A stretch of 64,000 nt of DNA from an uncultured Gemmatimonadaceae bacterium (GCA_963829055.1 CAWHHI010000008.1:96001-160000); one strand, 5' to 3'; shown: positions 40-63,409, counted from the stretch's first letter. Notes: generated from the letters alone by a model not told the origin. A program made the numbers and translations.

Positions 40-1218
40 TTGTCGCTGGATGTGTTTCGAGGCATGACGATCGCCGGGATGCTGCTCGTCAACAATCCCG
101 GCAGCTGGGGCGCGATCTACCCGCCACTGGAGCACGCGACGTGGAACGGATGGACGCCGACAGATCTGATCTTCCCGTTCTTCCTGTTCATCGTCGGCAT
201 CACGACGCACCTCTCGCTCGATGCGCGTCGCGCGCGTGGCGACGACGAGGGCGCGCTCATCAGGCAGGTCATCCGTCGCGGCCTGCTGATCTTCCTCGCG
301 GGCTTCCTGGTCAACGGGTTTCCGTATTTCACGTGGGGTGCGGTGGACGGCATCGCGAACCCGTCGTTCATCGAGCGCGTCGTCGATCGCCTGTACCACT
401 GGCGGATCATGGGCGTGCTGCAGCGCATCGGCTTGGCCTACATGTTCGCGGCGCTGCTCAGCTTCAGGACGACGCTCAAACAGCAGGTCGCGATCATCGC
501 CACACTGTTGTTCGGGTACTGGTTCGCGATGACGCTCGTACCCGTACCGCCTAACGGCTTCCTCGGCATCGACGTGCTAGGGAACCCTCCGGAGACGCTC
601 GCCGCCTACTTCGATCGTCTGCTGCTCGACTGGGGCAGGTTTGGGAACCACCTCTGGGTCAGCAGCGTCACGTGGGATCCGGAAGGCCCATTCTCCACGA
701 TCCCCGCGGTCGGCACGGCGATGCTCGGCATCATCTGCGGCCGCTGGATCAAGTCACCCCGCCCGCTGAGCGAGCGCCTTGCAGGCATGTTTGCCGCGGG
801 CAGCATCGCCATGATGCTCGGTCTCATGTGGCACTGGTCCTTCCCGATCAACAAGAGCCTGTGGACGAGCTCGTACGTTCTTTTCACCGCGGGTATGGCT
901 GCGGTGGCGCTCGCGACATGCATGTGGATCATCGACGAGCACCGCGTCGCGGGCTGGACCAAGCCCTTCGTGATCTACGGAATGAACCCCATTGTGGCGT
1001 TCGTCGGCTCCGGAGTCACGGCGCGCCTCATCTATTCGATCTTCAAGGTCGAGTCGGACGGCAAGCCTATCCCCCTCGAGACCTGGATCTACCAGACGTT
1101 CTATGCCTCATGGCTCGAGCCGCGCAACGCATCGTTGCTGTTCGCGATCACCTTCGTCCTCGTGTGGCTCGCCATCCTCTGGGTGCTCTACCGCCGGCGT
1201 ATCTTCGTGAAGCTCTAG
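40..1218 (+). CDS. Heparan-alpha-glucosaminide N-acetyltransferase-like (DUF5009/NagX-type) membrane acyltransferase; true start probably upstream of the window
   Basis: [49 protein letters not shown] and [10 protein letters not shown] motifs; many TM segments; frame open to the window edge. Confidence 0.85.
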
Positions 1219-1300
1219 CGGTATAACGCGGTATAGGAATCGTTCGAGCCATTGGTGCGGCCGGTCACCTACGCCTGGGCCCGGTCGTGGCCCGACCGAC

Positions 1301-2980
1301 GTGCTCGTCGAGCCTGTGCCCGGAACGCCTGTTGCCACGTCAGACATCGTGAACTTGAAACGCACTTCTCTGCTCCGCACCCTGCGGAGATTGACGGATA
1401 TTGCCGTCGTTTCGGTGGCGCTCGCGGCTCCCGTCGCCACGTCCGCCGCGCAGAACGGCGGTACTCGCCCGCCTGGCGGAACCAAGGCGGCGACCTCGAG
1501 GTCCCGCCCCACGACGCGCACAGCGCCTCGCGCCAAGACCACGCGTCCTGCAGCGCGCCGCCCCGCACCGCCGCCTGCGCTCCGCTACACGGCCCCAGCG
1601 AGTGCGGCCGCGCTCGCGTCCGACATCGGCACGTTTCTCAACGCGCGAGTTCGCAGCGGCAACTGGGGCGCGATGGTCGTCTCGCTCACGCGCGGCGACA
1701 CGCTGTACTCGGCCAACGCTGGCGATCTGCTGATGCCAGCGTCGACCATGAAGCTGTTCACGTCCGCGCTGGCGTTCGACACGTTCGGTCCCGACCACCA
1801 GTTCACGACTACCGTGCTGCGCGACGGAACGCTCGGCCCCGACGGTACGCTTACTGGGAACCTCGTCCTGCGCGGCGGAGGCGACCCCGGTTTGTCCACC
1901 CGCTACTATCGCGCGCCCGCCGACGGACCGATGTCGACGCTTGCACGCATGGTCGCCGCCGCTGGCATCAAGCGCGTCTCGGGCGATCTCCTCGCGGACG
2001 CGAGCGCGTTCGAATCGAAGCGCGTCCCCGATGGCTGGCTCGCGCGGTATCTGGAGTCCGGCTACGCTGCACGCGTGTCCGCGCTCTCCATGAACGAGAA
2101 CCTCGCGACCGTCGTCATCACCCCGGCGCCTAACGGCGGCGCGGCGAGCGTCTACCTCGACCCTCCGTCGAGCACCGTGCCTGTGACGAGCGCCGTGCGC
2201 ACGGTCATGGGCAGCAAGCGTGACAAGCTCGTGATTCGTCGGCAGCCGGACGGCCGCGTCGACGTCCGCGGCTGGATCGGATCGAAGGCTGGTCCGCGCT
2301 CGTACCTCGTGGTCATCGACGACCCTGCGCCCTGGGTAGCCGGAACACTGCGATCCGCATTGGCTGCCCAGGGTGTGACCGTCACTGGACAGGTGAAGAC
2401 CGGCGCCGCGACGTCGAACGCGGTGACAGTGGCGTCGTTATCGTCGCCACCGCTCGCGCGACTCGCGTCAGCCATGAACCGCGAGAGCATCAACCACTTC
2501 GCCGAGTTGCTGTTTCGCGATGTCGCGCACATTGCCAGTCCCGACAAGGTCGGGTCGGCCGAGTACGGGAATACCGCGCTCAGAAAGTTCATGGCGGACA
2601 AGGTCGGCGCGACCGCCACGGACGTCATGGCCGCTGACGGCAGCGGCCTCTCCACACTCGATCGTGTGACCGCTCGCGCGCTGGTGCAACTGCTGTCCTA
2701 CTCGCATCGCGCGTCATGGTCAGCCGACTTCCACGCGTCGCTACCAGTGGCTGGCGAGTCGGAGCTGCTGCGTCATCGCATGCGGTACACGCCCGCGCAG
2801 GGAAACCTGCACGCGAAGACCGGAACCACGAACGACGTCATCGGACTCGCGGGCTACGTCACCGCACGTGACGGCGAGGTGCTGGCCTTCGCGTTTCTCT
2901 ACAACGGTCGCGATCGCTGGAATGCCAAGGAGGCGATCGACGTCTCAGGAGCGACGCTGGCTGGCTTCGTGCGAGAGTAG
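1301..2980 (+). CDS. dacB: D-Ala-D-Ala carboxypeptidase/endopeptidase (PBP4, peptidase S13); start uncertain
   Basis: PASTMK (SxxK), SIN (SxN), DGSGLS and KTGT motifs; signal-like N-terminus. Confidence 0.9.
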   Translation: MLVEPVPGTPVATSDIVNLKRTSLLRTLRRLTDIAVVSVALAAPVATSAAQNGGTRPPGGTKAATSRSRPTTRTAPRAKTTRPAARRPAPPPALRYTAPASAAALASDIGTFLNARVRSGNWGAMVVSLTRGDTLYSANAGDLLMPASTMKLFTSALAFDTFGPDHQFTTTVLRDGTLGPDGTLTGNLVLRGGGDPGLSTRYYRAPADGPMSTLARMVAAAGIKRVSGDLLADASAFESKRVPDGWLARYLESGYAARVSALSMNENLATVVITPAPNGGAASVYLDPPSSTVPVTSAVRTVMGSKRDKLVIRRQPDGRVDVRGWIGSKAGPRSYLVVIDDPAPWVAGTLRSALAAQGVTVTGQVKTGAATSNAVTVASLSSPPLARLASAMNRESINHFAELLFRDVAHIASPDKVGSAEYGNTALRKFMADKVGATATDVMAADGSGLSTLDRVTARALVQLLSYSHRASWSADFHASLPVAGESELLRHRMRYTPAQGNLHAKTGTTNDVIGLAGYVTARDGEVLAFAFLYNGRDRWNAKEAIDVSGATLAGFVRE

Positions 2981-3164: not shown

Positions 3165-3803
3165 ATGGGGATTCTCGACACGATTGGGGCGCAGCTTGGC
3201 GGCAATACCATTGCGCAGATCAGCCAGCAAGTCGGCGCTGATCCAGCGACCACAGCGAAAGCGGTTTCAGTCGCGCTACCGCTCTTGCTCGGTGGTCTGA
3301 ACCGGAACGCGGCCACGCCAGACGGTGCTGCCGCCCTCGATCAGGCGCTGACGCGCGACCACGACGGTTCGCTCCTCGATGCCCCGCACCAGGCGATCAC
3401 CAACCCTACCGCGCTCAACGCCGGCGGGATCCTCGGCCATATCTTCGGTCAGCGACAGGCGCCGATCCAGCAGGGCGTCGCGAAAGCCACCGGCATGGAT
3501 ATGCAGAGCGCGGGCAAGGTTCTGATGATCCTGGCGCCGATCGTGATGGCTGGGTTGGCGCGGGCTCGCGCCGCTCACGGCGCGAACGCGTCCGCGGGCG
3601 CAGTGCTTCAGGGGGAACAACAGCACATGGAGCGCCAGGTTCCGGGAATCGGCGGACTTGCCTCCATCCTCGACCGCAATCACGACGGAAGCATCGCCGA
3701 CGACATCGCGAACATGGCGTCCGGTCAGCTCGGCGGCTCGGCCGGCGGACTCGGCGGCGGATTGGGCAGCATCCTCGGCGGCCTGCTCGGCGACAAGCGT
3801 TAG
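3165..3803 (+). CDS. DUF937 family protein
   Basis: GGAGG RBS at 3153; PLLLGGL..N, HDGSLLD, GILGHIFG, LAPIVM and LDRNHDGSIADD motifs. Confidence 0.8.
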   Translation: MGILDTIGAQLGGNTIAQISQQVGADPATTAKAVSVALPLLLGGLNRNAATPDGAAALDQALTRDHDGSLLDAPHQAITNPTALNAGGILGHIFGQRQAPIQQGVAKATGMDMQSAGKVLMILAPIVMAGLARARAAHGANASAGAVLQGEQQHMERQVPGIGGLASILDRNHDGSIADDIANMASGQLGGSAGGLGGGLGSILGGLLGDKR

Positions 3804-3816
3804 GCCCTCGACACAA

Positions 3817-3843: not shown

Positions 3844-3886
3844 GTCTTGCTTCCAACATCGTTAGGCGGTCAGACACCGGGCATTG

Positions 3887-5711: not shown

Positions 5712-5891
5712 CTACTGCGGAACCGGCTCCGAGTACAGGAAGTCGTCCATCACCACGAGGTCGTACGTCCCGCCGTTGCTGACATCCTGGGCCTGCGCGC
5801 CTAACGCGCCGGTGCCCGATGTGATGCGGACGCGGGCGATCAGGGCTGACGCGAACTTCACGCCCACGACGCAGTGCGCATCTCGATGCAT
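5712..5891 (-). pseudogene. 59-codon ORF, probably the C-terminal remnant of a secreted protein
   Basis: Hand translation gives MHRDAHCVVGVKFASALIARVRITSGTGALGAQAQDVSNGGTYDLVVMDDFLYSEPVPQ*, with coding-like codon use. Confidence 0.5.
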
Positions 5892-6745: not shown

Positions 6746-8544
6746 GAGTCTTCCTTGCTCGCGGACGCGAGCGGTACCGACACCTCGACAATCGTCCCGT
6801 CACCCGGCGACGACTGCACCGTGAAATGCGCGCCTAACGACTCTGCCCGCTCTCGCATCGTGCGGAGACCGAGCCCAGGCCAGGTTCGCCCGGAATGGGC
6901 ATCAGGCATCCCCCCGCCAAATCCTGTACCGTCATCGCAAACACGCAAGACCGTCGTTGACGGCCCGCTCGAGAGCGTGAGCTCGACCATTCGCGCATTC
7001 GCGTGCTTGGCGACATTGTGCAGCGCTTCCTGCGCGATCCGAAACAGCTCGTATTCCTGCTCGCCCGGAGCTGCGACGTATCCTCGCGCACTGAAGATGA
7101 CGCGCAGACCATCCGCGCTCAGCTCGCGGGCATGTCGTCGCAGTGCACCGACCAGTCCATGACGGCGAATCGCATCCGCAGCCCGGGCCACGGGCGCCGT
7201 ATCGCCAGGCGGCGTGTCGCTGCCCGGCCGAAGCTCGCTCAGCAACGCACGCATCTCGGCGAGCGCCGTCTGACTCAGCTGAAGTAGCCGCTCCACGCGG
7301 CGCTCGCCCTCGGCCGGATCGCGCTTCCACGCTGCGCCCAGTGACTGCGCGATCAGCGTGACGCTGAACAACAGTTGCGTCACCGAGTCATGCAGTTCCC
7401 GCGCGAGCCTGTTTCTCTCTTCACTCGCCGCCAGCTTCCTGGCCACCGCATGCAACCGCGCGTTCGCGATGGCGACGCCCAGTTGATCGGCCACCAATCG
7501 GAGCACCTCCGCATCCGATTCGCCGAGCGGCTCATCCGCCTCCACGTTCAGCACGCCGAGCACACTATCGCCGAGCAGGATGGGAACCGCAATCTCCGAG
7601 TAGACGTCCGGCGCACCTGGCGTGCGCAGGTATCGTGGATCCGCGAGCACGTCGTTCACGAGCACCGTCTCGCGCGTTCTCGCCGCGGCGCCCATGATGC
7701 CCTGGTCGATCGGGAACTGATATTCGCCATGAATGATCGCCCGATAGTGCCCGCCTAACGTGTCCAGAATGAGCGTCTGTGGATCCTCGGGGTCGATCAG
7801 CGCAATCGCCACGTTCGGATAGCCGAGCAGCTCGTGCACCGCGTCGGCTGCCTTCTTCAGCATGTCGCCGAGTCGCAGATCCGAGGTGATGATGCCGCCG
7901 ATACGCGTGATGACCCGAAGACGCTCGGTGCGGCGCTGCTCGAGCTCATACGTGCGCGCATTCTGAATCGCGATCGCGGCGTGTCGTGCGAACTCCCCCA
8001 GGGCGGCAACGTCGGATTGCGTGAAGCGGCGCGCCCGCGTTCGTCCTTTCTTCGTTGCGGCGACGGCCTGCTTGCCGCGCGCAGGCCTCTTCGCTGGCGA
8101 TTTCGGCGACCGCCCGATCCCGAAGAACCCGATCATCGCGCCACGCCACACGATCGGCATGCCGAGAATGGCGTCGTTCAGCATGCCGGGCTGCGTCGGC
8201 TGCGGCACGTCACCGTATCGGCTGAATCTGAGAGGCTGGCGCGCCTCGAGCACGAGACCCGCGATTCCCTCACCGATACCGAGCTCCGTCCCGAGCTCGT
8301 TCGGCGGCATGTTGAAGCCCGCCTCCGTGCGCACGATCCCACGCGCCTCGTCCACGAGGCCTATCGTCCCGTGGTCGGCTTCGAGCAGCGTGCACGCCTG
8401 TTCGACGATTCGCGTGAGCAACGGACGAAGCTCCAGCTCGCCGCCGATCGACTCGATGACGGACCGTAGACTCCGTTGGCGCCGAAGGGTACGCGTCCGT
8501 CGCCGCGACCGGATGGCGTCGTCGTTAGGCGACACGTGAGGCAT
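6742..8544 (-). CDS. Cytoplasmic GAF-GAF sensor histidine kinase (HisKA_3)
   Basis: Two GAF domains; ERNRLARELHDSVTQ, QEALHNVAKHA, DDGTGF and GLGL motifs; overlaps the response regulator. Confidence 0.92.
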   Translation of the reverse strand: MPHVSPNDDAIRSRRRTRTLRRQRSLRSVIESIGGELELRPLLTRIVEQACTLLEADHGTIGLVDEARGIVRTEAGFNMPPNELGTELGIGEGIAGLVLEARQPLRFSRYGDVPQPTQPGMLNDAILGMPIVWRGAMIGFFGIGRSPKSPAKRPARGKQAVAATKKGRTRARRFTQSDVAALGEFARHAAIAIQNARTYELEQRRTERLRVITRIGGIITSDLRLGDMLKKAADAVHELLGYPNVAIALIDPEDPQTLILDTLGGHYRAIIHGEYQFPIDQGIMGAAARTRETVLVNDVLADPRYLRTPGAPDVYSEIAVPILLGDSVLGVLNVEADEPLGESDAEVLRLVADQLGVAIANARLHAVARKLAASEERNRLARELHDSVTQLLFSVTLIAQSLGAAWKRDPAEGERRVERLLQLSQTALAEMRALLSELRPGSDTPPGDTAPVARAADAIRRHGLVGALRRHARELSADGLRVIFSARGYVAAPGEQEYELFRIAQEALHNVAKHANARMVELTLSSGPSTTVLRVCDDGTGFGGGMPDAHSGRTWPGLGLRTMRERAESLGAHFTVQSSPGDGTIVEVSVPLASASKEDS

Positions 8545-10203
8545 CAACGAGACTGGAACGTCCCCAGCACGCGCACGTCCGGATCGAACGCTACGCCACG
8601 AGGCGAGGTCTCGAGGTCGAGCGGCACGACGAGCGTGGCGGAGCCGGTGGCGGGCACGTCGATCGTCGCTCGACGCTCACGACCCGAGGCATCGACGACC
8701 GCGACGGTCAGCGGGAAGCGATAGGCTCCGAACCGTGTTCCCTGCGCGATCGTCGCCACGACCCGCCGCTGAGCGGCGTCGTACCGCCACGAGGTCGTTA
8801 CCTCCGCGTACCCCGGCCGGCGCAGCCACTGGTCGAAGAACCAGCCTAACGACCTACCGGAGCGTGCCCTCCAGCGCGCGACGGAGATCATCGGTGAGCG
8901 CCGTGGAGTGACGGTTCGCCAGGTAGTACGATCGCACGCCGCGAAAGAACGCCGAGTCGCCGACCAGCCCGCGAAGCATGTGCAACGTCCAGCCGCCTTT
9001 CTGGTAGCTGTTCGTGTTCAACAGCTGCATGAGATTGGTTTGCAGCGTGTCGATCACCGGACGCGAGGCGACTTCGGGAGCTTTGACGATCTGGTCCCGG
9101 ATCCGACGCATGTCCGCGCGAAACGTGCTGTCGCCCCGGAAGCGCTCCACCCACAACTCCTGGAAGTACGTCGCGAATCCTTCCGAGAGCCACACGTGCG
9201 ACCACTCGCGCTCGGTGACGGCATCGCCGAACCACTGGTGCGCCGTCTCGTGCGCGATGACGCCAGGCTGCATGGTCTTCTTGCGGAACGGCCCGTCGGC
9301 GTAGAAGATCGCGCCCGCGTTCTCCATGCCTCCGTATCGCGTGGAGCTCTGCAGATGGGCGAGCTTCTCGTACGGGAATGGTGCGACGAGCTCGGAGAAC
9401 AACCGCACGATCTCCGGCGAATGCGCGAACGGGCCGGGGAGGAAATCACGCGATTCCGGAAACACGTACACCGACTGCCGCACGCACGAGCCGAACTCGC
9501 CCACGCCACAGCCATCGCGGCCGAGGTCGTAGTACACGAGTGGCGCCGCGGCGATCACCATCAGGTACGGCGCGATCGGCCGGTCTTCGCGCCACCGTGT
9601 CAGCGTGCGTGGCAGACCGCCGGAACGCGCCGCGAGCGGCGTCTCCTCGACGAGGTCTCCATTCGCCACCACGCGCCGTTCGCTCGGAGCGCGAACCGTC
9701 CACGTGACGGTCGCCTTGTCCGACGGATGGTCCACGCTCGGGATCCAGTTGCGCGCACGGTTCGGCCAGTTGTCGCCGAACGCGGTCCACCGACCCGCGC
9801 TGTCGGTGCGGATGATGAGTCCGTCCTTCGGCTCTCCGCTGTAGCGCACAGTCACGGAGAACGAGTCGCCCACGACCGTGCCGATCGGCACGCGAAGCAG
9901 CGAGTCCGTTCGCGCGAACGCAGCTGCGCGATCGTCCACGAGCACGCTGTCCACACGCAGCGACACCAGGTCCAGCACGAGCGTGTCCACCGCGGCCGAT
10001 CGACGGACCGCCAGCACCGCTCGGCCCTGAATGGCGGCTCCGCGGTCAGGCAGGTCGAGCGTGATCGCGTAGTCGACCACGTCGATGCCCGGGCGGTACG
10101 GGTGCGGACCGGGACTCTGCGCGAGCGCGGGGCCAGCCAACGTTAGGCTGCCGATCACCACCTGGAAGTAACGACGCGAGCCTGCGCAACGCGATTGGGT
10201 CAT
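8544..10203 (-). CDS. M1 family aminopeptidase, with a +1 frameshift near 8862
   Basis: GGMEN, HETAHQWFGD, WLSEGFA and YQKG; the C-terminal SGRSLGWFFDQW continues in ORF 8544..8891. Confidence 0.88.
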
Positions 10204-11459
10204 TGGCGGATTGTGTGGTACACGATGAGATGATTCGGCGGGTCGTACGACTTCGCGTTCGGATCTGGCGCGATGGCGACGACGAACTCGCCACTCGCCG
10301 TCGACGCCAGCGCGATGCCGGGGCCGATAATGCGCGGTACCCGTACGCGGCCACCATCGCTGACGAACAGGCGAATCCAGCCGTCCTCGCTCTCGACATC
10401 CACCCCGCCGCCACGAAACGCGCGACGCTGCGTCATGTCCACGGTGGTCGATGCATCGATCGTCGGTCCTTCCACCCACTGAACGGGCGCGAGCGACGTC
10501 GCGTCCACAACACCGCGAGACGCGCCGCTTTCCGGGTCGACGAGGCGCCAACGCGATGCCTGTCCGTCGTCACTGATGACGTCCGCCGGCGCGCCGATCG
10601 CCAGACGTGAGCCGTTCGCTGCCCATGCCAGCCTCCACCCCTCAGCGATCGGGAGCGCGACTTCCCTCACGGGTGTAGAGTCATTCGCCACGCTCACGTC
10701 GACCACGAATGTACGCGCCGCGCCGAACGCCGACACCATGCCGCTCGTGGGAAACGCATGCATTCGGACGATCGATTCCCGAAGCCCGACGCCACGAGCG
10801 AGTCGACGCCACTCGCTCGCGGGGACGGAGTCCGACTCGCCCGGTCGCGTCGTGTACGCGCGCGAGTACGCGACACGTTTCCAGTCCGGGGCGGCCGCGG
10901 CGTCCCACGTGCTATCACGCTGTACGGGCGGCAACCCCTCCCGCGCGAAGACGAACCCGTTAGGCACGGGATCGTTTTCCGCTCCACGCGGGTCCTCCAC
11001 GACGAGTAGCCCGCGCCGGTCCTGACTCGAGACCCACCGCACCCGCGCCGACATTCCGTGCGTCCCGCGGTTCACGGCGACTACGCTCACGGCGATTCCG
11101 CTCGTCGAAGTCTGCGCTCCGACGACCTGGGGCTGCATTCCAGTCGCGCGCAGCGCGTGAGCGATCGCCCCTGCGAGCGCCGTATCGCCCGGAACGATGA
11201 CGCTCACCGCCCACCCGTTAGGCGGACGCTGCGCTCCGGTCGCAGCTTGCCAACCCTCCCGGCCCAGCGAATCGGCCAGCGCCGCGGCGCCACTCGAGTC
11301 GGCGACGTACGCGACGCGCACCAACGTCCCGGCGGCCGGTCGGTGCGTTACCGCCGTGGTGTCGGCGCTCGGACGCGCCTGCTCGCCACGACTGCACGCT
11401 CCGGCGATGGCGGCGCCGAGCGCGATGACCGCCACCTTGGTCCGACGGAGAGCGGGCAT
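10200..11459 (-). CDS. Hypothetical lipoprotein, possibly beta-propeller-like
   Basis: MPALRRTK..IAGAC lipobox; fills the gap between flanking same-strand genes; 4-bp overlap with the M1 peptidase. Confidence 0.6.
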   Translation of the reverse strand: MPALRRTKVAVIALGAAIAGACSRGEQARPSADTTAVTHRPAAGTLVRVAYVADSSGAAALADSLGREGWQAATGAQRPPNGWAVSVIVPGDTALAGAIAHALRATGMQPQVVGAQTSTSGIAVSVVAVNRGTHGMSARVRWVSSQDRRGLLVVEDPRGAENDPVPNGFVFAREGLPPVQRDSTWDAAAAPDWKRVAYSRAYTTRPGESDSVPASEWRRLARGVGLRESIVRMHAFPTSGMVSAFGAARTFVVDVSVANDSTPVREVALPIAEGWRLAWAANGSRLAIGAPADVISDDGQASRWRLVDPESGASRGVVDATSLAPVQWVEGPTIDASTTVDMTQRRAFRGGGVDVESEDGWIRLFVSDGGRVRVPRIIGPGIALASTASGEFVVAIAPDPNAKSYDPPNHLIVYHTIRQ

Positions 11460-11481
11460 GCGAAACCGAACGCCGGCGTGC

Positions 11482-21021: not shown

Positions 21022-21024
21022 GCG

Positions 21025-22399: not shown

Positions 22400-22450
22400 C
22401 ACTCGTCCGATTTTCGCGTTGATGGGATGATCTGTTTGCCTAACGAGCGA

Positions 22451-50721: not shown

Positions 50722-50728
50722 CGAACGC

Positions 50729-51106
50729 CTAACGCGCCCTGGTGTAGCGAAGCAACCCGGTGTGAAGCACCGTCAGCGGCAACCGAACGCAGGCCATGCG
50801 CGAGGCAGGAATCTCCGACTTGAGCTGGGTGATCAACTCGGGAACACTCAACGTTTCCACGTCCTCGAGCGGCGCCCCGCGCACCAGCTCTGTGAGCATC
50901 GACGACGCCGCAATACAGATCGCGCACGCGTTCGCGGTGAACCGCGCCTCGATGACGATGTCGCCGTCCAACGCGAGGTCGATGCGCACGCGATCGCCGC
51001 ACAGTGGATTCGTGCCCTCCTGAGACACTGTCGGCGCCGGAAGCGCCCCGCGATTGCGCGGGTTCTTGAAGTGTTCGAGGATGGTCGCGCTGTAGGGACC
51101 AGCCAC
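50729..51106 (-). CDS. IscU/SufU-like scaffold or sulfurtransferase
   Basis: EHFKNPRN, NPLCGD, ACAIC and RMAC motifs. Confidence 0.85.
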   Translation of the reverse strand: MAGPYSATILEHFKNPRNRGALPAPTVSQEGTNPLCGDRVRIDLALDGDIVIEARFTANACAICIAASSMLTELVRGAPLEDVETLSVPELITQLKSEIPASRMACVRLPLTVLHTGLLRYTRAR

Positions 51107-54650: not shown

Positions 54651-55668
54651 CGTCGTCCTGAGGATCAGCTGCCGGCTGCTCCGGGACGGCGCGCCATCGA
54701 AGCGACCAGTGACGCGTCGCGCCGGCTTCGAGCCAGTGCGCATTTTTCCACGCGCCGAGCGCTTCCTCGAGCGTGTCCGGCGCGCCGATGCAGGGCTCGA
54801 ACGAGAGATGCGTGTACGGCTTCCCGCGCTTGAGCGGCGTCCACGCGCCACGGTTTATCCACAGCCCGAAGTTCGGGACTTCATCGACCTTGAACATCAC
54901 TTCGAGGCGCAATCCATCCTCGATGACGGCGGCTCGTCCTTCACGCATTTCGAGAAAAAGCTTGCACGCATAACGTTTCGCGACGCCGAATGGGTTCGAC
55001 ATGTCGAGCAGCCGTCCGGATGACCGCACCATGGGCCAGCGAAGATCGGTCGCGCCGACGCCGAGCGCGATCTCGTGCTGCGCGTAGACGTGCATGCGTG
55101 TGGCAGCCGGGAATTCGATCCGCGTGGCGCTCGTTAGGTTGAGAATCGGGTGTGCCGCCCAGACGAACGGCACACGATCGGTGCCCGTGTTCGTTGCCTC
55201 GTAGCGGCACTCCACCTCACCCGTCGGCGTCACGCGAACCTCGCGCGTGAAGCGGTACGGCATGCGGCGCCCCATCCAGGTCGTCGTCGCGCTCTGCCCT
55301 TCGGGTGACGTGCGTACGTCGATCGTCGGGATCTGAGACCAGAGCTCACCGTGATCGGGGAGTTGCGCGCCACCGAAGCCACGCACCCACGTCGGAACCT
55401 TGCTCGCGCCTCTATTCGGAAAGCACTCGTCATACCCGCCCGTATCCGCCGTCTCGGCGTAGGACGCGCTCTCGTCAGGCACCGTGTACGGCGTGACATC
55501 GCTGCTCCAGAGCCACTGACGTCCACCGAGCTCGAGGTGCGCGATCTTGCCGCCCAGCGCAGGCACAATCAGCACGCGCGATCCGCCACCGCGCAGCTCG
55601 GCGAACCCGAAATCCTCGAAGCGCGGCGTAGGCTCCGCGGGGCGAGACCGTCCGAAGAAGGACTTCAG
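54640..55668 (-). CDS. Galactose mutarotase / aldose epimerase-like protein; start uncertain
   Basis: PALGGKI, GGYDECFP, DHGELW, WAAHP and FEPC motifs; frame stays coding-like up to a CTG at 55668. Confidence 0.75.
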   Translation of the reverse strand: MKSFFGRSRPAEPTPRFEDFGFAELRGGGSRVLIVPALGGKIAHLELGGRQWLWSSDVTPYTVPDESASYAETADTGGYDECFPNRGASKVPTWVRGFGGAQLPDHGELWSQIPTIDVRTSPEGQSATTTWMGRRMPYRFTREVRVTPTGEVECRYEATNTGTDRVPFVWAAHPILNLTSATRIEFPAATRMHVYAQHEIALGVGATDLRWPMVRSSGRLLDMSNPFGVAKRYACKLFLEMREGRAAVIEDGLRLEVMFKVDEVPNFGLWINRGAWTPLKRGKPYTHLSFEPCIGAPDTLEEALGAWKNAHWLEAGATRHWSLRWRAVPEQPAADPQDDVRS

Positions 55669-56939
55669 GGGACCGGCTCGTCGAGAACGGCGACACCCGC
55701 AGCGCGCACGTCGATTCCACGACTCGCGAAGATCCGCGTAATTGTCTCGCCGATCTTGTTGTTAGGCGTGCTCGCACCAGCAGTCAGCCCGACCCGGACG
55801 CCATCGTGAATCGGCATCCAGTCGGTCGCCACCGCTTCGCTATGCTTGACCCCCGCCGGCCGGTACGTGATGCGATGCATGTCGGGCTCGATGCTCGTCG
55901 CATCCTCGATATGGTACGTGGGCACGCGGTCCGCGCATAACGCGGCGAGCGATATCGTGTTGCTCGAGTTGTAGCCGCCGATGACGACCATCACGTCCAG
56001 TGGCTCCCGGAGGAGATCTTCGACCGCGTCCTGGCGATCCTGCGTTGCCGAGCAGATCGTGTCGAACGTGCGGAAATTCGCTGCCCGGTAGTCGTCGCCG
56101 TAGCGCCGAGCCATGGCCCGACCAGCTTCCTCGCCGATCGCCAGCGATTCACGCGCGAGCATCGTCGTCTGGTTCGCGACGCCAATCCGTCGCAGATGCA
56201 CATCCGGATCGAAGCCGGGAGACGCTGCGCGCGCGAAGCGCGCCAGGAACTCGTCGCGCGTTCCGCGGCCCTCGATGTACTCACAGACGAGTTGCGCCTC
56301 GCTCATGTCGCGGACCACGAGGAACGCGCCGCCGGGATATCGCTCCACCTGGGACGCGGTCGCGCGAGTCTCTTCGTGGTAGTGCTTGCCATGGATGAGC
56401 GCGGTGAACCCATCGCGCGCGTAGCTCTCCACGCGCTTCCAGACGTTGAGGACCGACCCACACGTGGTGTCGACGACGACGCAGCCGAGCCCGCGGAGAG
56501 TCTCGAAGTCGCGGACCGTCACGCCGAACGCGGGCAGAATCACGACATCCGACACAGACACACCAGCGTAGTCGAAAACCGGTTTACCGTCTGCGTCCTG
56601 GCCGGGCGCGAGGATCTGGATCCCCATCTCGCCCAACCGGCGGTTGACGTGCGGGTTGTGGATGATCTCGCCAACCAGGAGAATCCGGCGATCCGGAAAC
56701 TTCCGACGGGTCTGATAGGCGTACTCGACCGCCCGCTCGACACCGTAACAGAAGCCAAATTCCCGGGCGAGCCGGACCGTGACAGCCCCGATGGTCAGAG
56801 TGTGGTCGTGCTCGCGGAGCAGGTCGACCAGCGAGCCGTCGTAATCGGCCGCCAGCGTCCCTTCGACCTCACCCTTGAGCCCGAATCCCTTGCGAAAGTA
56901 CGTCGCGGGTGGCGTCGATCCCTGCTCTGGTACCGTCAT
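55665..56939 (-). CDS. ispH: 4-hydroxy-3-methylbut-2-enyl diphosphate reductase
   Basis: FGFCYGVERA, IIHNP, DTTC, NQTT, TICSAT, SSN and AGASTP motifs. Confidence 0.95.
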   Translation of the reverse strand: MTVPEQGSTPPATYFRKGFGLKGEVEGTLAADYDGSLVDLLREHDHTLTIGAVTVRLAREFGFCYGVERAVEYAYQTRRKFPDRRILLVGEIIHNPHVNRRLGEMGIQILAPGQDADGKPVFDYAGVSVSDVVILPAFGVTVRDFETLRGLGCVVVDTTCGSVLNVWKRVESYARDGFTALIHGKHYHEETRATASQVERYPGGAFLVVRDMSEAQLVCEYIEGRGTRDEFLARFARAASPGFDPDVHLRRIGVANQTTMLARESLAIGEEAGRAMARRYGDDYRAANFRTFDTICSATQDRQDAVEDLLREPLDVMVVIGGYNSSNTISLAALCADRVPTYHIEDATSIEPDMHRITYRPAGVKHSEAVATDWMPIHDGVRVGLTAGASTPNNKIGETITRIFASRGIDVRAAGVAVLDEPVP

Positions 56940-58023: not shown

Positions 58024-58060
58024 TCGACGTCGCGCTCGGCGGGCGTTAGGCGCCGGTAGA

Positions 58061-60007: not shown

Positions 60008-60543
60008 GCCTCGTTAGGGTCGTCCGCACGTATCTCGAGCTACGCTCACCGAACGCCCTCCGCTCCGCAACGCGCGACGACCCCGCCCTGCGTCTCGCAC
60101 GCATGGCGCCCGACGACATCCGGCTATTCAGGGAGTTGTATCACGACGTCGGCCACGCCCATCAGTGGCACGATCGCAACTCGCTCTCTGACAGCGAGCT
60201 GCGGACGCACTTCGAGTCACCCGATGTGGCGCTCTGGGTGCTGTACCACGACGATACCCCGGCAGGATTCTTCGAGCTGCGGCGTCACGCGGACGACAGC
60301 GTCGAGATCGTGTATTTCGGCCTGACGGCCGCGTTCACCGGCCGGGGGCTCGGCAAGCACCTGCTCTCTCGCGCGGCGGAGACTGCGTGGGCCTTCGGCG
60401 CCGAGCGCGTGTGGCTGCACACGTGTACGCTCGACTCACCGGCAGCACTGCCTAACTACCTCGCGCGTGGATTCGAGCCGTACAAGACCGAGACGTACCA
60501 GGCGGTCGTTCGCGACGATCAGCCGGAGACGCCTAACGACTGA
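60004..60543 (+). CDS. GNAT N-acetyltransferase
   Basis: TYLE, YFGL, GRGLG, VWLHTCTLD and NYLARGF motifs. Confidence 0.88.
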   Translation: MSLVRVVRTYLELRSPNALRSATRDDPALRLARMAPDDIRLFRELYHDVGHAHQWHDRNSLSDSELRTHFESPDVALWVLYHDDTPAGFFELRRHADDSVEIVYFGLTAAFTGRGLGKHLLSRAAETAWAFGAERVWLHTCTLDSPAALPNYLARGFEPYKTETYQAVVRDDQPETPND

Positions 60544-60562
60544 CGCCCGGTCCCGGCTGCCC

Positions 60563-63409
60563 CTAGCGGCCGCGGCGACGACGCCCGCGCGGGGCCGCTC
60601 CGCCGGGACCTCGGCCGCGCGGCGGCGAGCCGTCACCGCCGGGACCGCAATGCCGCGGTCCACTGCCATCGCCGCGCCGCGCCGCCCTGCCCCGCGGCGG
60701 GCGCTTGTCACGGCGGAACTCGCCGGCAAGCTCGCGAACCCGTCGTTCATCGCGTGGCGTGAGGTCCGTCGACGGCTCGTCGCGCACGACTTCATCCGGC
60801 GACCACGGGCGGTCGAGCAGGTCCTGCAGCTCGGCGAGTGTCGTCGCGCGCACGGCGCCACGCGGCCCACGAAGCACCGTGAAGCGAATCGGGCGATCGA
60901 GCGCAGGCAACTCCTCTTCCGTCATCGTCCGCGCGAGCTTCTCCGGCAGGCGCAGCCTCGCGACGCCACGCGGTGTTCCGCTCACGTCCTCGACGTCGTA
61001 GTCGATGGGAACAGTGCGACCGCGGACGTCGACGGCATCCGGCAGCGCGAGGAAGGTCGCTCGCACGTCTGGAGCGACGATGGCATCGAAGTCGATCGGG
61101 AGCTGCGACGCCCGAAATTCGTCCATCGATCGCACACCCCCCAGTGCGCGCTCGTAGAGCGGCGTGAGCTCCGCCACTCCAAGGCGCGGAGTCGCGGCCC
61201 CTGAGCGTCGATAGACCTCGCGGATCTCCTCAATGACGGAGCGATGCCGCTTGAGCGCGGGATGGCGCGCCTCGCCACGCGCGAGCGAATCGGCGAGCAA
61301 GGATCTGATGCGATCCTCGAGCTCGGGCGGAAAATCGTCCAGCGGCTCATACTCGCGATCGAGCTCGAAGCCGTGGTACTGCAGCGTTCGTCGGAGCGCG
61401 AGCGACCCGTGCTTCCGGCGCGGATCGTAGACGACTTCGCCCGCCCCGCGGGTTGCATAACGCTGCACCAGCTCGGGCGGGATCTGCGTACCCTCGATCG
61501 ACGCGCGAGGAATACCGAATCGGTCAGCGAAGTAGCGAAGCTCTCCGGCGATCGGTCCCCAGCTGCCACACACGCTCGTCTTCGAAACGCGTGCTTCGTC
61601 GCCGTCGGCCGTCTGCTCGTCGATCACGAGGTCGAACGGCATGAAGCGCGCGAGCAGGTCGGCGAAGCGTCTGCGCGTGTCTTCGCGCGCATACGAGAGG
61701 TGATCCGGGAGCGGCAGGCCGACGCCACGGTAGACGCTCGCCATCGCGAGCGCGGCGTCCTCGATCGCCTTCACCAGCACGCCGCGCTGCTCAGCCCACT
61801 CCTCGATGCGCTCGTCGAACAGATGCCGAGGCAGCCCGTAGACTTCACCCATGTAGCCGGCGCTCGTGAACGCTTCGGCGTACACGTTGTAGGCCGTGAG
61901 GTGATCGCTCCCCGCGACGATCAGCCCCTCGAGATCGCGATCCTCGCGCGTCATGCGGTGCAGCGACTCGATCGAGCTCATCACGGCGAGATACGGAATC
62001 ATGTCGTCGTCCGCATTGACGACCAACTCCGCCCACGGCCGGTCCACCGGCAGTGCCTCGACCAGCTTGCCATAACGCGACAGCCGCCCGTTTTCGATGA
62101 TACCGCGCGATTCCAGATGGGCTACGGCCTCGCGATACGCGCGTCTGTCGAGCGCGATCGGGAGGTCCAGCTCGTCCGCGCGCACACCGAGGTCGGCACA
62201 CGTGAGCGCGACGCGTTCGGAATCACCGGCGAGCTGGAACTCGGGCTCTGTTGGGCGTAACGCGTAGAAATCGATGTCACGGTCGGACAGGATGAACACC
62301 CGCCCACCCTCCACGCGGCCGTGTACGCGGCCAGCCATCTGGAGGATCTCGTTCGCGCCGAGGTGCAGGCGCGTCAGCACGTTCTTTCCGCGCTCGATGA
62401 TGTTCGCGAACCGCGTGTCATCGATGATGACGGTATCGAGGCCCTTCACGTTCAGAGCGGACTGCCCGGCAGCGGTCATCGAGAGAAAAAACGGCTTCTC
62501 CGCCCCATCTTCGAGGAATGGACGGATGATGCGAATCGGCTCGCCGCCGTGATAGAACGCGCTCGTGATACGCGGGAACCGATCGGCCACATAGCGCGCA
62601 GCCTCCTCCACGGAGGCTCGCGTCGGCAGGAACATCCCGACGCCGCGCTGCTGCCTAACGACCTGTTGGAGGAACTTGTCGTTGAGGAACTGCACCGGCT
62701 GCTCGCGGACCACCTTCACCGACGCCGCCCGCTTCGGATCGAACGCGAAGCTCTGCACCACGGCGGTGGAGTTCAGATACCGCGCATAGAACGTCGGGTC
62801 GACCGTGGCCGATAGCCAGATGAACCGGCATCCGACGCGCTTTCCGAGCGCCAGACAGAGTTCCAGCTCAGCCGACGTCTGATGGATCTCGTCGACGATG
62901 AGCGTGTCGTTCTTCAGGATGTCGCCGTCCTGGAACCAGCGGCGCGCGATGCCGGTTGTGACGATGATCACGTTCCACGTCGGTGTCTCCGGCGTGGCCT
63001 CGCGCTCGCGGTTCACCACCCCGACGCGGAGGGGAGCGCGAAGGATTTCCTCCGCGATCGGTCTGACGGCGAGCGTTTTTCCCGTACCGGTGCCGGCCAC
63101 GATCCCGAAGGGGCGGCCGTCACGCGCGAGCGCGCGGACTTCCTCACCGTGTTCGCGCTCGAGGAACGTGTCGATGTGCAGCCCGAGCGCGATCTCGATC
63201 GTCTCGCATGCCGCGCGTGTGGGCGCGATGACGATCACGCGCCCCGTTGGGGGCTCCGCGGCGACGAACGCGCCGTGATCCGGCGGGAGCGAGCGGTCCT
63301 GGACCTGTCGAAGCACGAGTCGAAGGGGTGCAAAGACGAAGCCGTCGCTGGACGGGAGATCGAGCTCTCCGTTCGCGACGGCCTGGGCAATGTACTCCGC
63401 CTCACGCAT
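60563..63409 (-). CDS. DEAH-box (HrpA/HrpB-like) SF2 helicase
   Basis: GTGTGKT, DEIH, SAT and QMAGR motifs; Arg/Gly-rich tail. Confidence 0.8.
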   Translation of the reverse strand: MREAEYIAQAVANGELDLPSSDGFVFAPLRLVLRQVQDRSLPPDHGAFVAAEPPTGRVIVIAPTRAACETIEIALGLHIDTFLEREHGEEVRALARDGRPFGIVAGTGTGKTLAVRPIAEEILRAPLRVGVVNREREATPETPTWNVIIVTTGIARRWFQDGDILKNDTLIVDEIHQTSAELELCLALGKRVGCRFIWLSATVDPTFYARYLNSTAVVQSFAFDPKRAASVKVVREQPVQFLNDKFLQQVVRQQRGVGMFLPTRASVEEAARYVADRFPRITSAFYHGGEPIRIIRPFLEDGAEKPFFLSMTAAGQSALNVKGLDTVIIDDTRFANIIERGKNVLTRLHLGANEILQMAGRVHGRVEGGRVFILSDRDIDFYALRPTEPEFQLAGDSERVALTCADLGVRADELDLPIALDRRAYREAVAHLESRGIIENGRLSRYGKLVEALPVDRPWAELVVNADDDMIPYLAVMSSIESLHRMTREDRDLEGLIVAGSDHLTAYNVYAEAFTSAGYMGEVYGLPRHLFDERIEEWAEQRGVLVKAIEDAALAMASVYRGVGLPLPDHLSYAREDTRRRFADLLARFMPFDLVIDEQTADGDEARVSKTSVCGSWGPIAGELRYFADRFGIPRASIEGTQIPPELVQRYATRGAGEVVYDPRRKHGSLALRRTLQYHGFELDREYEPLDDFPPELEDRIRSLLADSLARGEARHPALKRHRSVIEEIREVYRRSGAATPRLGVAELTPLYERALGGVRSMDEFRASQLPIDFDAIVAPDVRATFLALPDAVDVRGRTVPIDYDVEDVSGTPRGVARLRLPEKLARTMTEEELPALDRPIRFTVLRGPRGAVRATTLAELQDLLDRPWSPDEVVRDEPSTDLTPRDERRVRELAGEFRRDKRPPRGRAARRGDGSGPRHCGPGGDGSPPRGRGPGGAAPRGRRRRGR

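What the first reader, a model, noticed from the sequence alone, without database searches (positions are those of the whole stretch)
549..62660. Highly iterated non-palindromic octamer GCCTAACG/CGTTAGGC written through genes in every frame: candidate uptake-sequence or HIP1-like genome signal
Seen: 42 CCTAAC-core sites by manual count (28 GCCTAACG, 6 GCCTAACA, 6 ACCTAACG, 2 other), about one per 1.5 kb. A rough base-composition estimate gives only 2-3 exact octamers in the window, and TA-containing words are otherwise scarce here. Orientation is near even (19 CCTAAC, 23 GTTAGG on +). The motif is read as CCT-AAC (Pro-Asn), TTA-GGC (Leu-Gly), CTA-ACG (Leu-Thr), GTT-AGG (Val-Arg), as stop codons, and between genes. 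It therefore uses TTA, CTA and AGG codons that are normally rare at this GC content. Known: frame-independent, non-polarised abundant words are typical of Neisseria/Pasteurellaceae DNA uptake sequences and cyanobacterial HIP1, whereas Chi and KOPS are strand-skewed. Inference: this is a DNA-level recognition site (uptake, methylation-linked repair or recombination, or nucleoid protein binding). I know of no description of it for this lineage.
Basis: partly seen in the sequence, partly recalled or inferred. Interest (0 to 1): 0.9.

Follow-up and report, generated by a model that had tools for sequence, protein, structure and literature searches.

The report
Genome-wide word matching integron core site
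This soil bacterium has written one eight-letter DNA word through its ordinary genes about twenty times more often than chance, much like the self-DNA tags of Neisseria and Haemophilus, and the word is spelled exactly like the crossover end of its own integron gene-cassette sites; what reads it is still unknown.

Summary
The window has 28 GCCTAACG/CGTTAGGC and 42 CCTAAC cores, against a shuffle mean of 1.2. The genome has 5004 copies, one per 1.56 kb. That is 19x over a third-order Markov model and 23x over synonymous-codon shuffles.

The word shows no strand polarity. It is made by synonymous changes that use rare codons: 46% of all TTA codons lie inside it. Copies are spaced out, and they survive between congeners 2.7x better than other 8-mers.

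Its distribution is patchy. It occurs in some Gemmatimonadaceae genera and, as the 9-mer GCCTAACGA, in some soil Chthoniobacterales (Verrucomicrobiota). All 34 hits of one low-sensitivity scan of 185,579 species fell in those two groups.

In both phyla the word equals one end of the local integron attC sites, probably the R' core-site end, including the phylum-specific ninth base. Word-poor relatives carry the same attC ends.

Integron integrase, ComEC and type IV pilins occur in rich and poor genomes alike. RecC, C5 methylase and Vsr were not found in this genome.

Best reading, at confidence 0.4: an uptake-sequence-like DNA drive whose specificity matches the attC end.

The scan reported this word six times before, on other genomes.

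The parts
549..556 (+). word GCCTAACG, inside a gene on + (sense)
2128..2135 (+). word, inside the Peptidase_S13 gene 1301-2980 (sense)
3798..3805 (-). word, outside called genes, downstream of gene 3887-4447(-)
3860..3867 (-). word, about 20 nt downstream of gene 3887-4447(-)
5799..5806 (+). word, outside called genes
6832..6839 (+). word, antisense in the GAF histidine kinase gene 6742-8547(-)
7753..7760 (+). word, antisense in the same kinase gene
8523..8530 (-). word, sense, near the start of the same kinase gene
8844..8851 (+). word, antisense in gene 8544-8891(-)
10141..10148 (-). word, sense in the Peptidase_M1 gene 8854-10551(-)
10958..10965 (-). word, outside called genes
11216..11223 (-). 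word, outside called genes
11480..11487 (+). word; its CTA (11482-11484) is the TAG stop codon of gene 11482-12663(-)
   Evidence: read from the coordinates
21023..21030 (-). word; its TAA (21025-21027) is the stop codon of the glycosyltransferase gene 21025-22332(-)
   Evidence: read from the coordinates
22438..22445 (+). word, between genes
25215..25222 (-). word, sense, near the start of the Peptidase_S58 gene 23941-25227(-)
25779..25786 (-). word, outside called genes
32191..32198 (+). word in the dihydrolipoamide dehydrogenase-type gene 30938-32347(+), read Gly-Pro-Asn-Val; the same position holds the word in G014 and ACCTAACG in G001
32313..32320 (-). word in the same gene, read Ala-Leu(TTA)-Gly; the same position holds the word in G293, while the other four orthologues use other Leu codons (CTC in G001 and G014, CTG in G289, CTA in G008)
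34671..34678 (-). word in the phosphoglycerate dehydrogenase-type gene 34235-35839(+)
35781..35788 (-). word near the 3' end of the same gene
40673..40680 (-). word, sense in the CoA-transferase gene 40557-41687(-)
47595..47602 (+). word, about 80 nt downstream of gene 47681-50050(-)
50727..50734 (+). word; its CTA (50729-50731) is the TAG stop codon of the NifU-like gene 50729-51106(-)
   Evidence: read from the coordinates
51642..51649 (+). word, antisense in gene 51109-52149(-)
58044..58051 (-). word, 21 nt downstream of the LD-carboxypeptidase gene 56965-58023(+)
60531..60538 (+). word, sense, at the 3' end of the GNAT gene 60004-60543(+)
62653..62660 (+). word, antisense in gene 60563-63409(-)
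18074..18079 (-). CCTAAC core with one flanking letter different from the word
22025..22030 (+). CCTAAC core, one-off variant
23872..23877 (-). CCTAAC core, one-off variant
26749..26754 (+). CCTAAC core, one-off variant
28132..28137 (+). CCTAAC core, one-off variant
33852..33857 (+). CCTAAC core, one-off variant
34786..34791 (-). CCTAAC core, one-off variant
40582..40587 (-). CCTAAC core, one-off variant
43121..43126 (-). CCTAAC core, one-off variant
48777..48782 (-). CCTAAC core, one-off variant
55133..55138 (-). CCTAAC core, one-off variant
55761..55766 (-). CCTAAC core, one-off variant
60013..60018 (-). CCTAAC core, one-off variant
60451..60456 (+). CCTAAC core, one-off variant

Best explanation
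GCCTAACG/CGTTAGGC is a DNA-level 'self word'. A process that acts on the DNA duplex itself keeps it at about one copy per 1.5 kb across the resident chromosome. Point substitutions create copies wherever the protein tolerates them, mostly as synonymous changes to rare codons or at stop codons and gene ends. Copies are kept longer than neutral sequence, yet they still turn over.

The most likely mechanism is the one known for DNA uptake sequences (DUS/USS). DNA that carries the word is preferentially taken up or integrated from relatives, so word-bearing alleles spread by molecular drive. What is special here is the specificity.

Shown here: abundance, frame independence, lack of polarity, spacing, retention with turnover, patchy phylogeny, and identity to the attC end including the dialect.

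For: Abundance and substitution pattern:
- 23x excess over synonymous-codon shuffles, in all four frames that avoid an in-frame stop, on both strands of genes.
- 46% of all TTA codons lie in the word.
- In a six-genome codon alignment of one gene, words arise by substitution, most of it synonymous (for example CTC to TTA), at conserved residues, with no insertions.

Polarity and spacing:
- No replichore polarity: 51.4%.
- Gaps under 200 bp are depleted, 215 observed against 611 expected. Gaps of 400-1600 bp are enriched, 2593 against 2086.

Retention with turnover:
- 15 of 34 G000 words sit at the same position in congener G001, over 82.6 kb aligned at 77% identity. The baseline for all 8-mers is 16.3% (p about 1e-4).
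- Six other species share three word positions in one gene.

Distribution and dialects:
- All 7 genomes of the genus are rich, and a further 14 of the family's 111 other sampled genomes are rich or enriched (3, 11). One genus holds 3 rich genomes and 1 poor one.
- The word is the 8-mer GCCTAACG here and the 9-mer GCCTAACGA in Chthoniobacterales.
- In a low-sensitivity scan of 185,579 species, 17 hits were Gemmatimonadota and 17 were Chthoniobacterales or Verrucomicrobiae, 34 of 34.

Match to attC ends:
- 35 of 35 attC sites in word-poor Gemmatimonadales arrays have end A = GCCTAACG, with a variable ninth base.
- 26 of 26 Chthoniobacterales attC have end A = CCTAACGA. 16 of these come from a word-poor genome.
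- The longest open frame in 26 of 35 cassette units points to end A being the R' crossover end.

Uptake hardware:
- The ComEC channel is present in 37 of 37 genomes tested, including this one.
- Type IV pilin genes are present.
Against: - No sequence-biased uptake has been shown for any member of either phylum. None of my searches turned up a paper on it.
- ComEC and pilin homologues occur equally in word-rich and word-poor genomes, so they explain nothing about the patchiness.
- No receptor candidate was found.
- A plain uptake-sequence model does not predict identity to the integron core site in two phyla.
- Integron integrase is found in poor genomes too, and was not found in some rich ones: G004, G397 and G002 (fragment only). 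In G014 it is broken.
- A 400-kb Chthoniobacterales sample shows no recent gene flow with this genome, although the two share the word. There were 169 matches, median identity 39%, maximum 72.7%.
- Close inverted pairs, common for Neisseria DUS, are not enriched: 29 and 27 against 36 and 45 for same-orientation pairs.
Confidence: 0.4

Rival explanations
1. The resident integron integrase, or a protein that shares its R-box specificity, reads the words inside the cell. They would act as dispersed integrase half-sites. Possible roles are docking or secondary sites for cassette insertion, for example right after stop codons, titration of the integrase, or raw material from which new cassettes and attC sites arise.
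For: - The word is letter for letter one end of local attC sites in two phyla, probably the R' crossover end. This includes the phylum-specific ninth base, and the same ends occur in word-poor relatives, so the attC spelling comes first.
- Integrase genes are present in this genome (C20:208041-208958, 265.7 bits) with about 4 attC beside it.
- Integrase is present in 4 of 5 rich Chthoniobacterales.
- 338 of 5319 genes end in the word, and density doubles in the first 50 nt after stop codons.
Against: - Integrase is as common in word-poor genomes. For example, G289 has 3 copies and only 66 words.
- Integrase was not found, or is broken, in some rich genomes.
- This genome's integrase is only 40% identical to both a poor relative's and a Chthoniobacterales one, while those two share 54%. 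So no special integrase is shared by rich lineages.
- The ends of 8 indels between G000 and G001 do not fall on words.
- There is no excess of close inverted pairs that could fold like an attC.
- Both stop-codon orientations are used.
- The window has no attC.
- Most words lie inside genes, where insertion would be harmful.
Confidence: 0.22
2. The word is the binding site of a chromosome-organising or other abundant DNA-binding protein. Ordinary weak selection for site density maintains it, and the match to the integron core is a coincidence or a secondary adaptation.
For: - Even spacing, with short gaps depleted.
- No polarity.
- Presence throughout resident DNA.
- Retention above baseline.
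- All four features are also expected for a structural binding site.
Against: - It does not explain why two phyla use the same core, or why each dialect matches the local attC end.
- Thousands of sites written against codon preference need either strong per-site selection or a drive.
- No candidate protein was identified.
Confidence: 0.15
3. HIP1-like case. The word is a methyltransferase target, and it accumulates through methylation-linked mismatch repair of the very-short-patch type or another methyl-directed process.
For: - Abundance and quasi-regular spacing resemble HIP1 (abstracts of PMC5861425 in the search listing and of bioRxiv 10.64898/2026.06.24.733823).
- The word has the form of a non-palindromic type IIL or type III site. 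This resemblance is recalled, not tested.
- A D12-class adenine methylase gene lies in the window at 38570-39701.
Against: - No C5 methylase (PF00145) and no Vsr (PF03852) was found in this genome, the other five g1 genomes tested, G014, G300 or the three rich g40 genomes. They occur in 10 and 7 of 37 genomes, among them word-poor and moderately enriched Gemmatimonadaceae and two rich Chthoniobacterales.
- The D12 methylase does not track the word. It is absent from G014, G300 and 4 of 5 Chthoniobacterales, and present in the poor genomes G289, G007, G009 and G017.
- Repair of a single mismatch type can only shift one neighbouring word into the motif. It cannot build a 20-fold excess (inference).
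- The word is not a palindrome.
- Other adenine methylase families were not tested.
Confidence: 0.06
4. A Chi-like or KOPS-like polar motif that guides recombination or chromosome segregation.
For: It is an 8-mer, abundant, and allowed inside genes. These are general resemblances only.
Against: - No polarity: 51.4% on the G-rich strand genome-wide. It is 56:44 across the clear skew switch on C16.
- RecC was found in only 4 of 30 genomes, and not in this one.
- Its density is several-fold that of known Chi or KOPS sites (recalled).
- An apparent polarity in Chthoniobacterales was a listing artefact.
- AddAB-type enzymes were not searched.
Confidence: 0.03

Closest known systems
DNA uptake sequences: DUS of Neisseriaceae (read by the minor pilin ComP) and USS of Pasteurellaceae
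   Same: - A short non-palindromic word at about one copy per kb.
- Both orientations, inside genes in several frames and between genes.
- Far above codon-aware nulls, more evenly spaced than random, and with lineage dialects.
- Kept with turnover and scarce in foreign DNA.
   Different: - Uptake bias is untested, and no receptor is known.
- The hosts are soil Gemmatimonadaceae and Chthoniobacterales, for which none of my searches turned up a paper on competence with sequence preference.
- No inverted-pair terminators.
- The word equals the integron core site, which has no counterpart in DUS or USS.
Integron attC sites and the core site GTTRRRY (R' box) cut by the integrase IntI
   Same: - CGTTAGGC is C plus GTTAGGC, a perfect GTTRRRY core.
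- It matches end A of 35 of 35 local attC sites and, as TCGTTAGG, 26 of 26 Chthoniobacterales attC sites.
   Different: - The genome-wide copies are bare 8-mers with no partner box, no L boxes and no hairpin.
- They lie inside ordinary genes and are made by point substitutions.
- The consensus GTTRRRY/RYYYAAC, and the rule that crossover is at G|TT, are recalled from the integron literature. They were not found in the passages I read of PMC8618304.
HIP1 (GCGATCGC) of cyanobacteria
   Same: A hyper-abundant octamer written through genes, quasi-regular in spacing, with a function long unknown and now proposed to aid DNA uptake (abstract of bioRxiv 10.64898/2026.06.24.733823).
   Different: HIP1 is a palindrome with cognate methylases. 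This word is not a palindrome, and no C5 methylase or Vsr was found here.
Chi and KOPS/AIMS polar octamers
   Same: Over-represented 8-mers that a DNA-processing machine reads.
   Different: - Those are strongly strand-biased with replication; this word is not.
- RecC was not found in this genome.

Membership tests
DNA uptake sequence (DUS/USS) | Short word hyper-abundant over composition- and codon-aware nulls | tested here: met
   5004 copies. 19.4x over Markov order 3. 23x over codon shuffles.
DNA uptake sequence (DUS/USS) | Both orientations about equal, with no replichore polarity | tested here: met
   2457 against 2547. 51.4% on the G-rich strand.
DNA uptake sequence (DUS/USS) | Spacing more even than random | tested here: met
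   Gaps under 200 bp: 215 observed against 611 expected. Gaps of 400-1600 bp are enriched. The overall CV is 1.03, because of three large deserts.
DNA uptake sequence (DUS/USS) | Lineage-specific dialects of one core | tested here: met
   GCCTAACG here. GCCTAACGA in Chthoniobacterales, with A at the ninth position in 87%.
DNA uptake sequence (DUS/USS) | Cells take up or integrate word-bearing DNA preferentially | not testable with these tools
   Needs transformation or uptake assays.
DNA uptake sequence (DUS/USS) | A dedicated receptor present where the word is abundant | tested here: inconclusive
   ComEC in 37 of 37 genomes. Pilin homologues at about 40% identity in rich and poor genomes alike. 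No discriminating gene found.
Integron attC site | Imperfect inverted repeat R''-L''...L'-R' of roughly 60-140 nt that folds as a hairpin | tested here: not met
   No flank conservation around the 5004 words. A covariance model built from 31 attC finds nothing in the window; the best hit is 17.6 bits, E 0.04, and not at a word.
Integron attC site | Core site GTTRRRY at the crossover end | tested here: met
   CGTTAGGC contains GTTAGGC. It is identical to end A of 35 of 35 local attC.
Chi (RecBCD/AddAB) | Strand bias with replication, and a cognate RecC or AddB | tested here: not met
   No polarity. RecC in 4 of 30 genomes, not in this one. AddAB was not searched.
KOPS/AIMS | Strong leading-strand skew that switches at the terminus | tested here: not met
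   56:44 across the skew switch on C16. 51.4% overall.
HIP1-type methylase-linked palindrome | A palindrome with a cognate methyltransferase (and possibly Vsr) | tested here: not met
   Not a palindrome. PF00145 and PF03852 were not found in this genome (86% complete) or the other richest ones. The D12 methylase is uncorrelated. Modification itself is not testable here.
REP/MITE or other dispersed repeat | Conserved sequence beyond the core, or terminal repeats | tested here: not met
   Information content falls to about 0.1 bit or less one base outside the 8-mer.

The most novel reading that the evidence does not exclude
The integron machinery and the genome-wide word are one system. Some soil Gemmatimonadaceae and Chthoniobacterales have a reader with the specificity of the attC R' end. 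It is either the integrase acting on thousands of chromosomal half-sites, or a DNA-uptake receptor that fishes for integron cassettes in environmental DNA. Its activity has stamped the integron core site through the whole chromosome. That would tie natural DNA capture to integrons. It would also make the old question of where gene cassettes and their attC sites come from directly testable.
Probability: 0.25. Interest if true: 0.95.

Novelty: new variant of a known kind. Interest (0 to 1): 0.8.

Why it matters
Only a few bacterial groups are known to carry a hyper-abundant genome word: Neisseriaceae, Pasteurellaceae and cyanobacteria. Each case has been informative about how bacteria recognise and exchange their own DNA.

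This case adds two abundant, poorly cultured soil phyla. It also adds an unexpected link: the word is the integron crossover site, and each phylum's dialect matches its own cassette sites. If the link is functional, it connects gene-cassette capture with a genome-wide DNA signal.

It also gives testable handles:
- a defined 8- or 9-mer;
- clear rich and poor sister genomes, such as G293 against G289;
- a candidate reader, the integrase.

On the practical side, the word is a sharp marker for binning. It flags foreign or misassembled DNA in these metagenome-assembled genomes.

Tried and rejected
1. Apparent strand polarity in Chthoniobacterales. The match list looked polar. Fetching 400 kb showed mixed orientation in every segment, so this was a listing artefact.
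2. RecBCD-Chi. RecC is in 4 of 30 genomes and not in this one.
3. Its distribution does not follow the word.
4. C5 methylase plus Vsr. Neither was found in the richest Gemmatimonadaceae.
5. Integrase presence as the discriminator. It is present in rich and poor genomes, and this genome's copy is simply divergent. In that call my script took the wrong strand for 4 of the 7 sequences, so only G000, G019 and G416 were compared.
6. ComEC and one type IV pilin as discriminators. Both are present everywhere tested.
7. Recent gene flow between the two word-bearing phyla. A 400-kb sample gave 169 matches and none above 72.7% identity. This sample is only about a tenth of one genome.
8. Words as recombination junctions. 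The ends of 8 indels between G000 and G001 do not coincide with words.
9. Dispersed solo attC sites in rich genomes. The whole-genome covariance-model search scored only 150 of more than 4000 candidates per rich genome, so its low counts are unreliable. The window itself has none.
10. Word-rich viruses. Two triple-word patterns found 0 viral contigs. Sensitivity is low: by my own estimate the same kind of pattern hits a rich genome less than once on average.
11. Ssn/NTS-type nuclease repeats (PMC11893778; outline and passages read). Those are intergenic hairpin repeats of about 28 nt, unlike this bare intragenic 8-mer.
12. Maximal-order Markov nulls (orders 4 and 5). They are uninformative because the word dominates its own sub-words.
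13. A regex screen for methylase motifs. It gave 119 open frames that I did not annotate, because typing them into a family search was too costly.
14. An unbiased gene-content comparison of rich and poor genomes. It could not be done, because only this genome can be laid in the script box.

Full report
**Observation.** The window holds 28 GCCTAACG on both strands, 14 plus and 14 minus. Dinucleotide shuffles give a mean of 1.16 and a maximum of 5. It holds 42 CCTAAC cores, 19 plus and 23 minus, against a shuffle mean of 6.9. The cores split into 28 GCCTAACG, 6 GCCTAACA, 6 ACCTAACG, 1 GCCTAACT and 1 CCCTAACG.

The window is G000:C8:96001-160000 of a 7.78-Mb assembly with 20 contigs and 66.7% G+C. 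Genome-wide there are 2457 + 2547 = 5004 copies, one per 1.56 kb. It is the top 8-mer by observed/expected, at 17x over zero order and 19.4x over a third-order Markov model. Higher orders are saturated by the word itself.

The logo is a sharp 8-mer with almost no flank information. The only enriched one-off variants are ACCTAACG (827), GCATAACG (583) and GCCTAACA (435).

**It is a DNA-level signal.** I called 5335 genes conservatively by GC3 (5.13 Mb). This set covers only about 65% of the genome, so 'outside called genes' does not mean intergenic.

- Inside these genes there are 2930 words, against 126 +/- 16 in ten synonymous-codon shuffles.
- All four frames that avoid an in-frame stop are used, on both strands.
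- 46% of all TTA codons, 16% of CTA and 6% of AGG lie in the word.
- 338 of 5319 genes take their stop codon from the word: 179 as GCC-TAA-CG and 159 as CGT-TAG-GC. Density doubles in the first 50 nt after stop codons.
- Three window sites (11480, 21023, 50727) provide stop codons.
- The window genes are ordinary housekeeping genes: gyrA, lipoamide dehydrogenase type, phosphoglycerate dehydrogenase type, IspH and peptidases.

A six-genome codon alignment of the lipoamide dehydrogenase-type gene shows how words arise. They come from substitution at conserved residues, for example GCG-CTC-GGC to GCG-TTA-GGC. There are no insertions. Positions are partly shared between genera but differ even within the genus.

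**Distribution along the chromosome.**

- *Polarity.* There is none. Per 50-kb bin the two orientations are mixed. Across the clear GC-skew switch on C16 the split is 56:44. Genome-wide, 51.4% of words have CGTTAGGC on the locally G-rich strand.
- *Spacing.* Short gaps are depleted and mid-range gaps enriched. Gaps under 200 bp number 215 against 611 expected. Gaps of 400-1600 bp number 2593 against 2086. Close inverted pairs are not enriched.
- *Deserts.* Three deserts of 31-50 kb lie at contig ends. They hold core-type genes that duplicate genes elsewhere in the genome. One is a second FtsK, only 46% identical to the copy on C16. They are probably foreign or contaminant DNA.

**Retention and turnover.** G000 and its congener G001 align over 82.6 kb at 77% identity. 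15 of 34 G000 words and 15 of 30 G001 words are at the same position in the other genome. Only 16.3% of all 8-mers are unchanged (p about 1e-4). Six other species share three word positions in the gene at C4:703595-704517, and G000 shares one of them. So individual copies are protected or renewed, but more than half differ between congeners.

**Phylogenetic pattern.**

- *First sample, 31 relatives.* All 7 genomes of the genus hold 2501-5112 copies. One other genus (G014) holds 6360 in 5.1 Mb. Two genomes are moderately enriched (G010, G030). The rest hold 6-65 copies, apart from G018 (194), and all of these lie below the reversed-word control.
- *Phylum sample, 401 genomes.* Richness is confined to some genera of the family: g1, g40, g43, g37, g39, g45, g30, g42 and g33. 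It also occurs in one genus (g73) of a second family. One genus, g40, holds three rich genomes (3479-4141) and one poor one (G289, 66).
- *Unpublished genomes.* The tallies include the unpublished genomes G013, G079, G118 and G199. All are word-poor, and no statement rests on them individually.
- *All species.* One scan of 185,579 species for three words in a fixed arrangement returned 34 loci. 17 were titled Gemmatimonadaceae or Gemmatimonadota, and 17 were titled Chthoniobacterales, Spartobacteria or Verrucomicrobiae. None came from anywhere else. By my own estimate this scan has low sensitivity.
- *Chthoniobacterales.* Five of those genomes hold 2512-4562 copies in 3.2-3.9 Mb. In a sample of 81 genomes of that order, 6 are rich.
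- *Placement of this genome.* It aligns at 66-75% identity to 13 of 16 of the Gemmatimonadota loci and to 1 of 18 of the others. That supports a Gemmatimonadaceae placement.

An apparent polarity in the Chthoniobacterales match list was an artefact of listing order. Fetched segments show mixed orientation.

**The integron link.** In word-poor relatives, the few GCCTAACG copies cluster on one strand at spacings of about 550 bp. These are integron cassette arrays, in which each unit ends in an attC hairpin of about 95 nt.

| Source | attC hairpins | End A | Ninth base | End B |
|---|---|---|---|---|
| Word-poor Gemmatimonadales arrays | 35 | GCCTAACG, 35 of 35 | G 25, A 8, C 2 | GCCTAACA or GTCTAACA |
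| Chthoniobacterales, word-rich genomes | 10 | CCTAACGA, 10 of 10 | A | CCTAACCA |
| Chthoniobacterales, word-poor G437 | 16 | CCTAACGA, 16 of 16 | A | CCTAACCA |

All attC figures are.

The genome-wide words follow the same dialects. Here the word is GCCTAACG, with no preference at the ninth base. In Chthoniobacterales it is GCCTAACGA, with A at 87%. Word-poor genomes carry the same attC ends, so the attC spelling is primary and the genome word copies it.

In 26 of 35 cassette units the longest open frame runs so that end A is the distal end of the attC. That makes end A the R' core site C-GTTAGGC. I recall from the integron literature, but did not see in the passages I read, that R' is GTTRRRY and that crossover is at G|TT.

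PMC8618304 (passages read) confirms three points. Integrons are known in Gemmatimonadota and Verrucomicrobiota. The integrase reads the folded bottom strand. attC types cluster by environment.

The words themselves are not attC sites. They have no flank conservation. A covariance model built from 31 attC finds none in the window. It finds about four beside this genome's own integrase gene at C20:208041-208958.

Nothing I tested separates rich from poor genomes.

- *Integron integrase.* It is over the family cut-off in 18 of 31 relatives, in 12 of a further 17 and in 4 of 5 rich Chthoniobacterales. It is present in poor genomes (G289 has three copies). It was not found, or is broken, in some rich ones (G004, G397, G014). 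These are incomplete assemblies.
- *This genome's integrase.* It is 40% identical to both a poor relative's and a Chthoniobacterales one, and those two share 54% (three sequences usable).
- *ComEC.* Present in 37 of 37 genomes.
- *Type IV pilin.* One pilin has homologues at about 40% identity in rich and poor genomes.
- *RecC.* In 4 of 30 genomes, not here.
- *C5 methylase and Vsr.* In 10 and 7 of 37 genomes. Neither is in this genome or the other richest Gemmatimonadaceae.
- *D12 methylase.* The frameshifted gene in the window does not follow the word.
- *Gene flow.* A 400-kb Chthoniobacterales sample shows no sign of recent gene flow with this genome.
- *Indels.* The ends of 8 indels between G000 and G001 do not fall on words.
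- *Viruses.* Two viral scans found nothing, at low sensitivity.

**Interpretation.** The anatomy matches the one mechanism known to produce such a pattern, the molecular drive of DNA uptake sequences. The matching features are these:

- a bare short word with no polarity;
- every permitted frame used;
- rare codons imposed;
- short gaps depleted;
- copies retained but turned over;
- lineage dialects;
- a patchy phylogeny.

That is my best reading, at confidence 0.4. I did not test uptake, and I could not identify a receptor.

The new element is that the specificity equals one end of local attC sites, probably the R' end, in two phyla. A plain uptake model does not predict this. Either the integrase, or something with its specificity, reads the chromosome-wide sites (0.22). 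Or a DNA receptor has evolved to bind cassette ends, which is part of the best reading. A structural DNA-binding protein (0.15), methylation-linked repair (0.06) and a Chi- or KOPS-like role (0.03) are less likely, for the reasons listed under the rivals.

**Prior knowledge.** None of my five literature searches turned up a paper describing this word, or an uptake sequence, for these phyla. One search found the letters only in papers with no bearing on such a word, among the 20 of 478 listed. One search found no paper holding both 'uptake sequence' and 'Gemmatimonad'.

This scan reported the same word six times before on other genomes, with the same closest-known family and an unknown reader. 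I found the integron match independently, before reading those notes. The cross-phylum lead came from the notes, and I confirmed it.

- the identity of the second group;
- the 8-mer and 9-mer dialects, and their match to local attC ends, including in word-poor genomes;
- the probable assignment to the R' end;
- the retention test;
- a set of negative tests on candidate readers.

Noticed in passing
L001 (G021:C95:1-20000), L003 (G021:C80), L002 (G019:C3): Word-poor relatives carry long integron cassette arrays. L001 has 22 units in 20 kb, each ending in an attC of about 95 nt with a very uniform sequence. Integron integrase is over its family cut-off in 18 of 31 relatives, so integrons are very common in this order.
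   Followed up: yes
G000:C20:205101-208958 (outside the window): This genome has its own small integron. It consists of a divergent integrase gene (265.7 bits, just over the cut-off; 40% identical to a relative's) and about four attC-like sites. The sites lie on the 3' side of the gene, so the integrase and the array appear co-oriented, not divergent.
   Followed up: partly
G000:C6:5440-55037, C6:591808-623330, C11:1-46789 (outside the window): Three word-free stretches of 31-50 kb lie at contig ends, two of them with G+C of 0.70-0.73. They encode core-type genes that duplicate genes elsewhere, for example a second FtsK only 46% identical to the C16 copy and a second DAHP synthase. They are probably contaminant or chimeric DNA, or a very recent large acquisition.
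   Followed up: partly
window 38570-39701 (-) and 42616-44479 (-): A D12-class adenine DNA methylase and a glycoside hydrolase family 15 gene are each split over two reading frames. These are either pseudogenes or indel errors of the assembly. The stretch 35.8-47.6 kb has slightly lower G+C and only one exact word.
   Followed up: partly
L099 (G422:C2:639500-644206): A word-poor Chthoniobacterales genome has five CCTAACGA copies (four of them the full 9-mer) within 4.7 kb at a contig end, none with an attC partner. This could be DNA from a word-rich organism, either transferred or misbinned.
   Followed up: no
window 14556-17168 (-): The gyrA gene (870 codons, 2.6 kb) holds no word and no CCTAAC core, although the genome average is one word per 1.5 kb.
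   Followed up: no
G000:C4:703595-704517 and C4:713460-714592 (outside the window): Loci from several other Gemmatimonadaceae species share identical word positions in two orthologous genes. In the first, six loci from five assemblies share three words. In the second, three loci from three assemblies share four words. G000 keeps one position in each gene.
   Followed up: partly
The genome search match lists: Within a contig, the match list can show all plus-strand matches before any minus-strand ones. This mimics strand polarity, so orientation should be checked on fetched DNA.
   Followed up: yes
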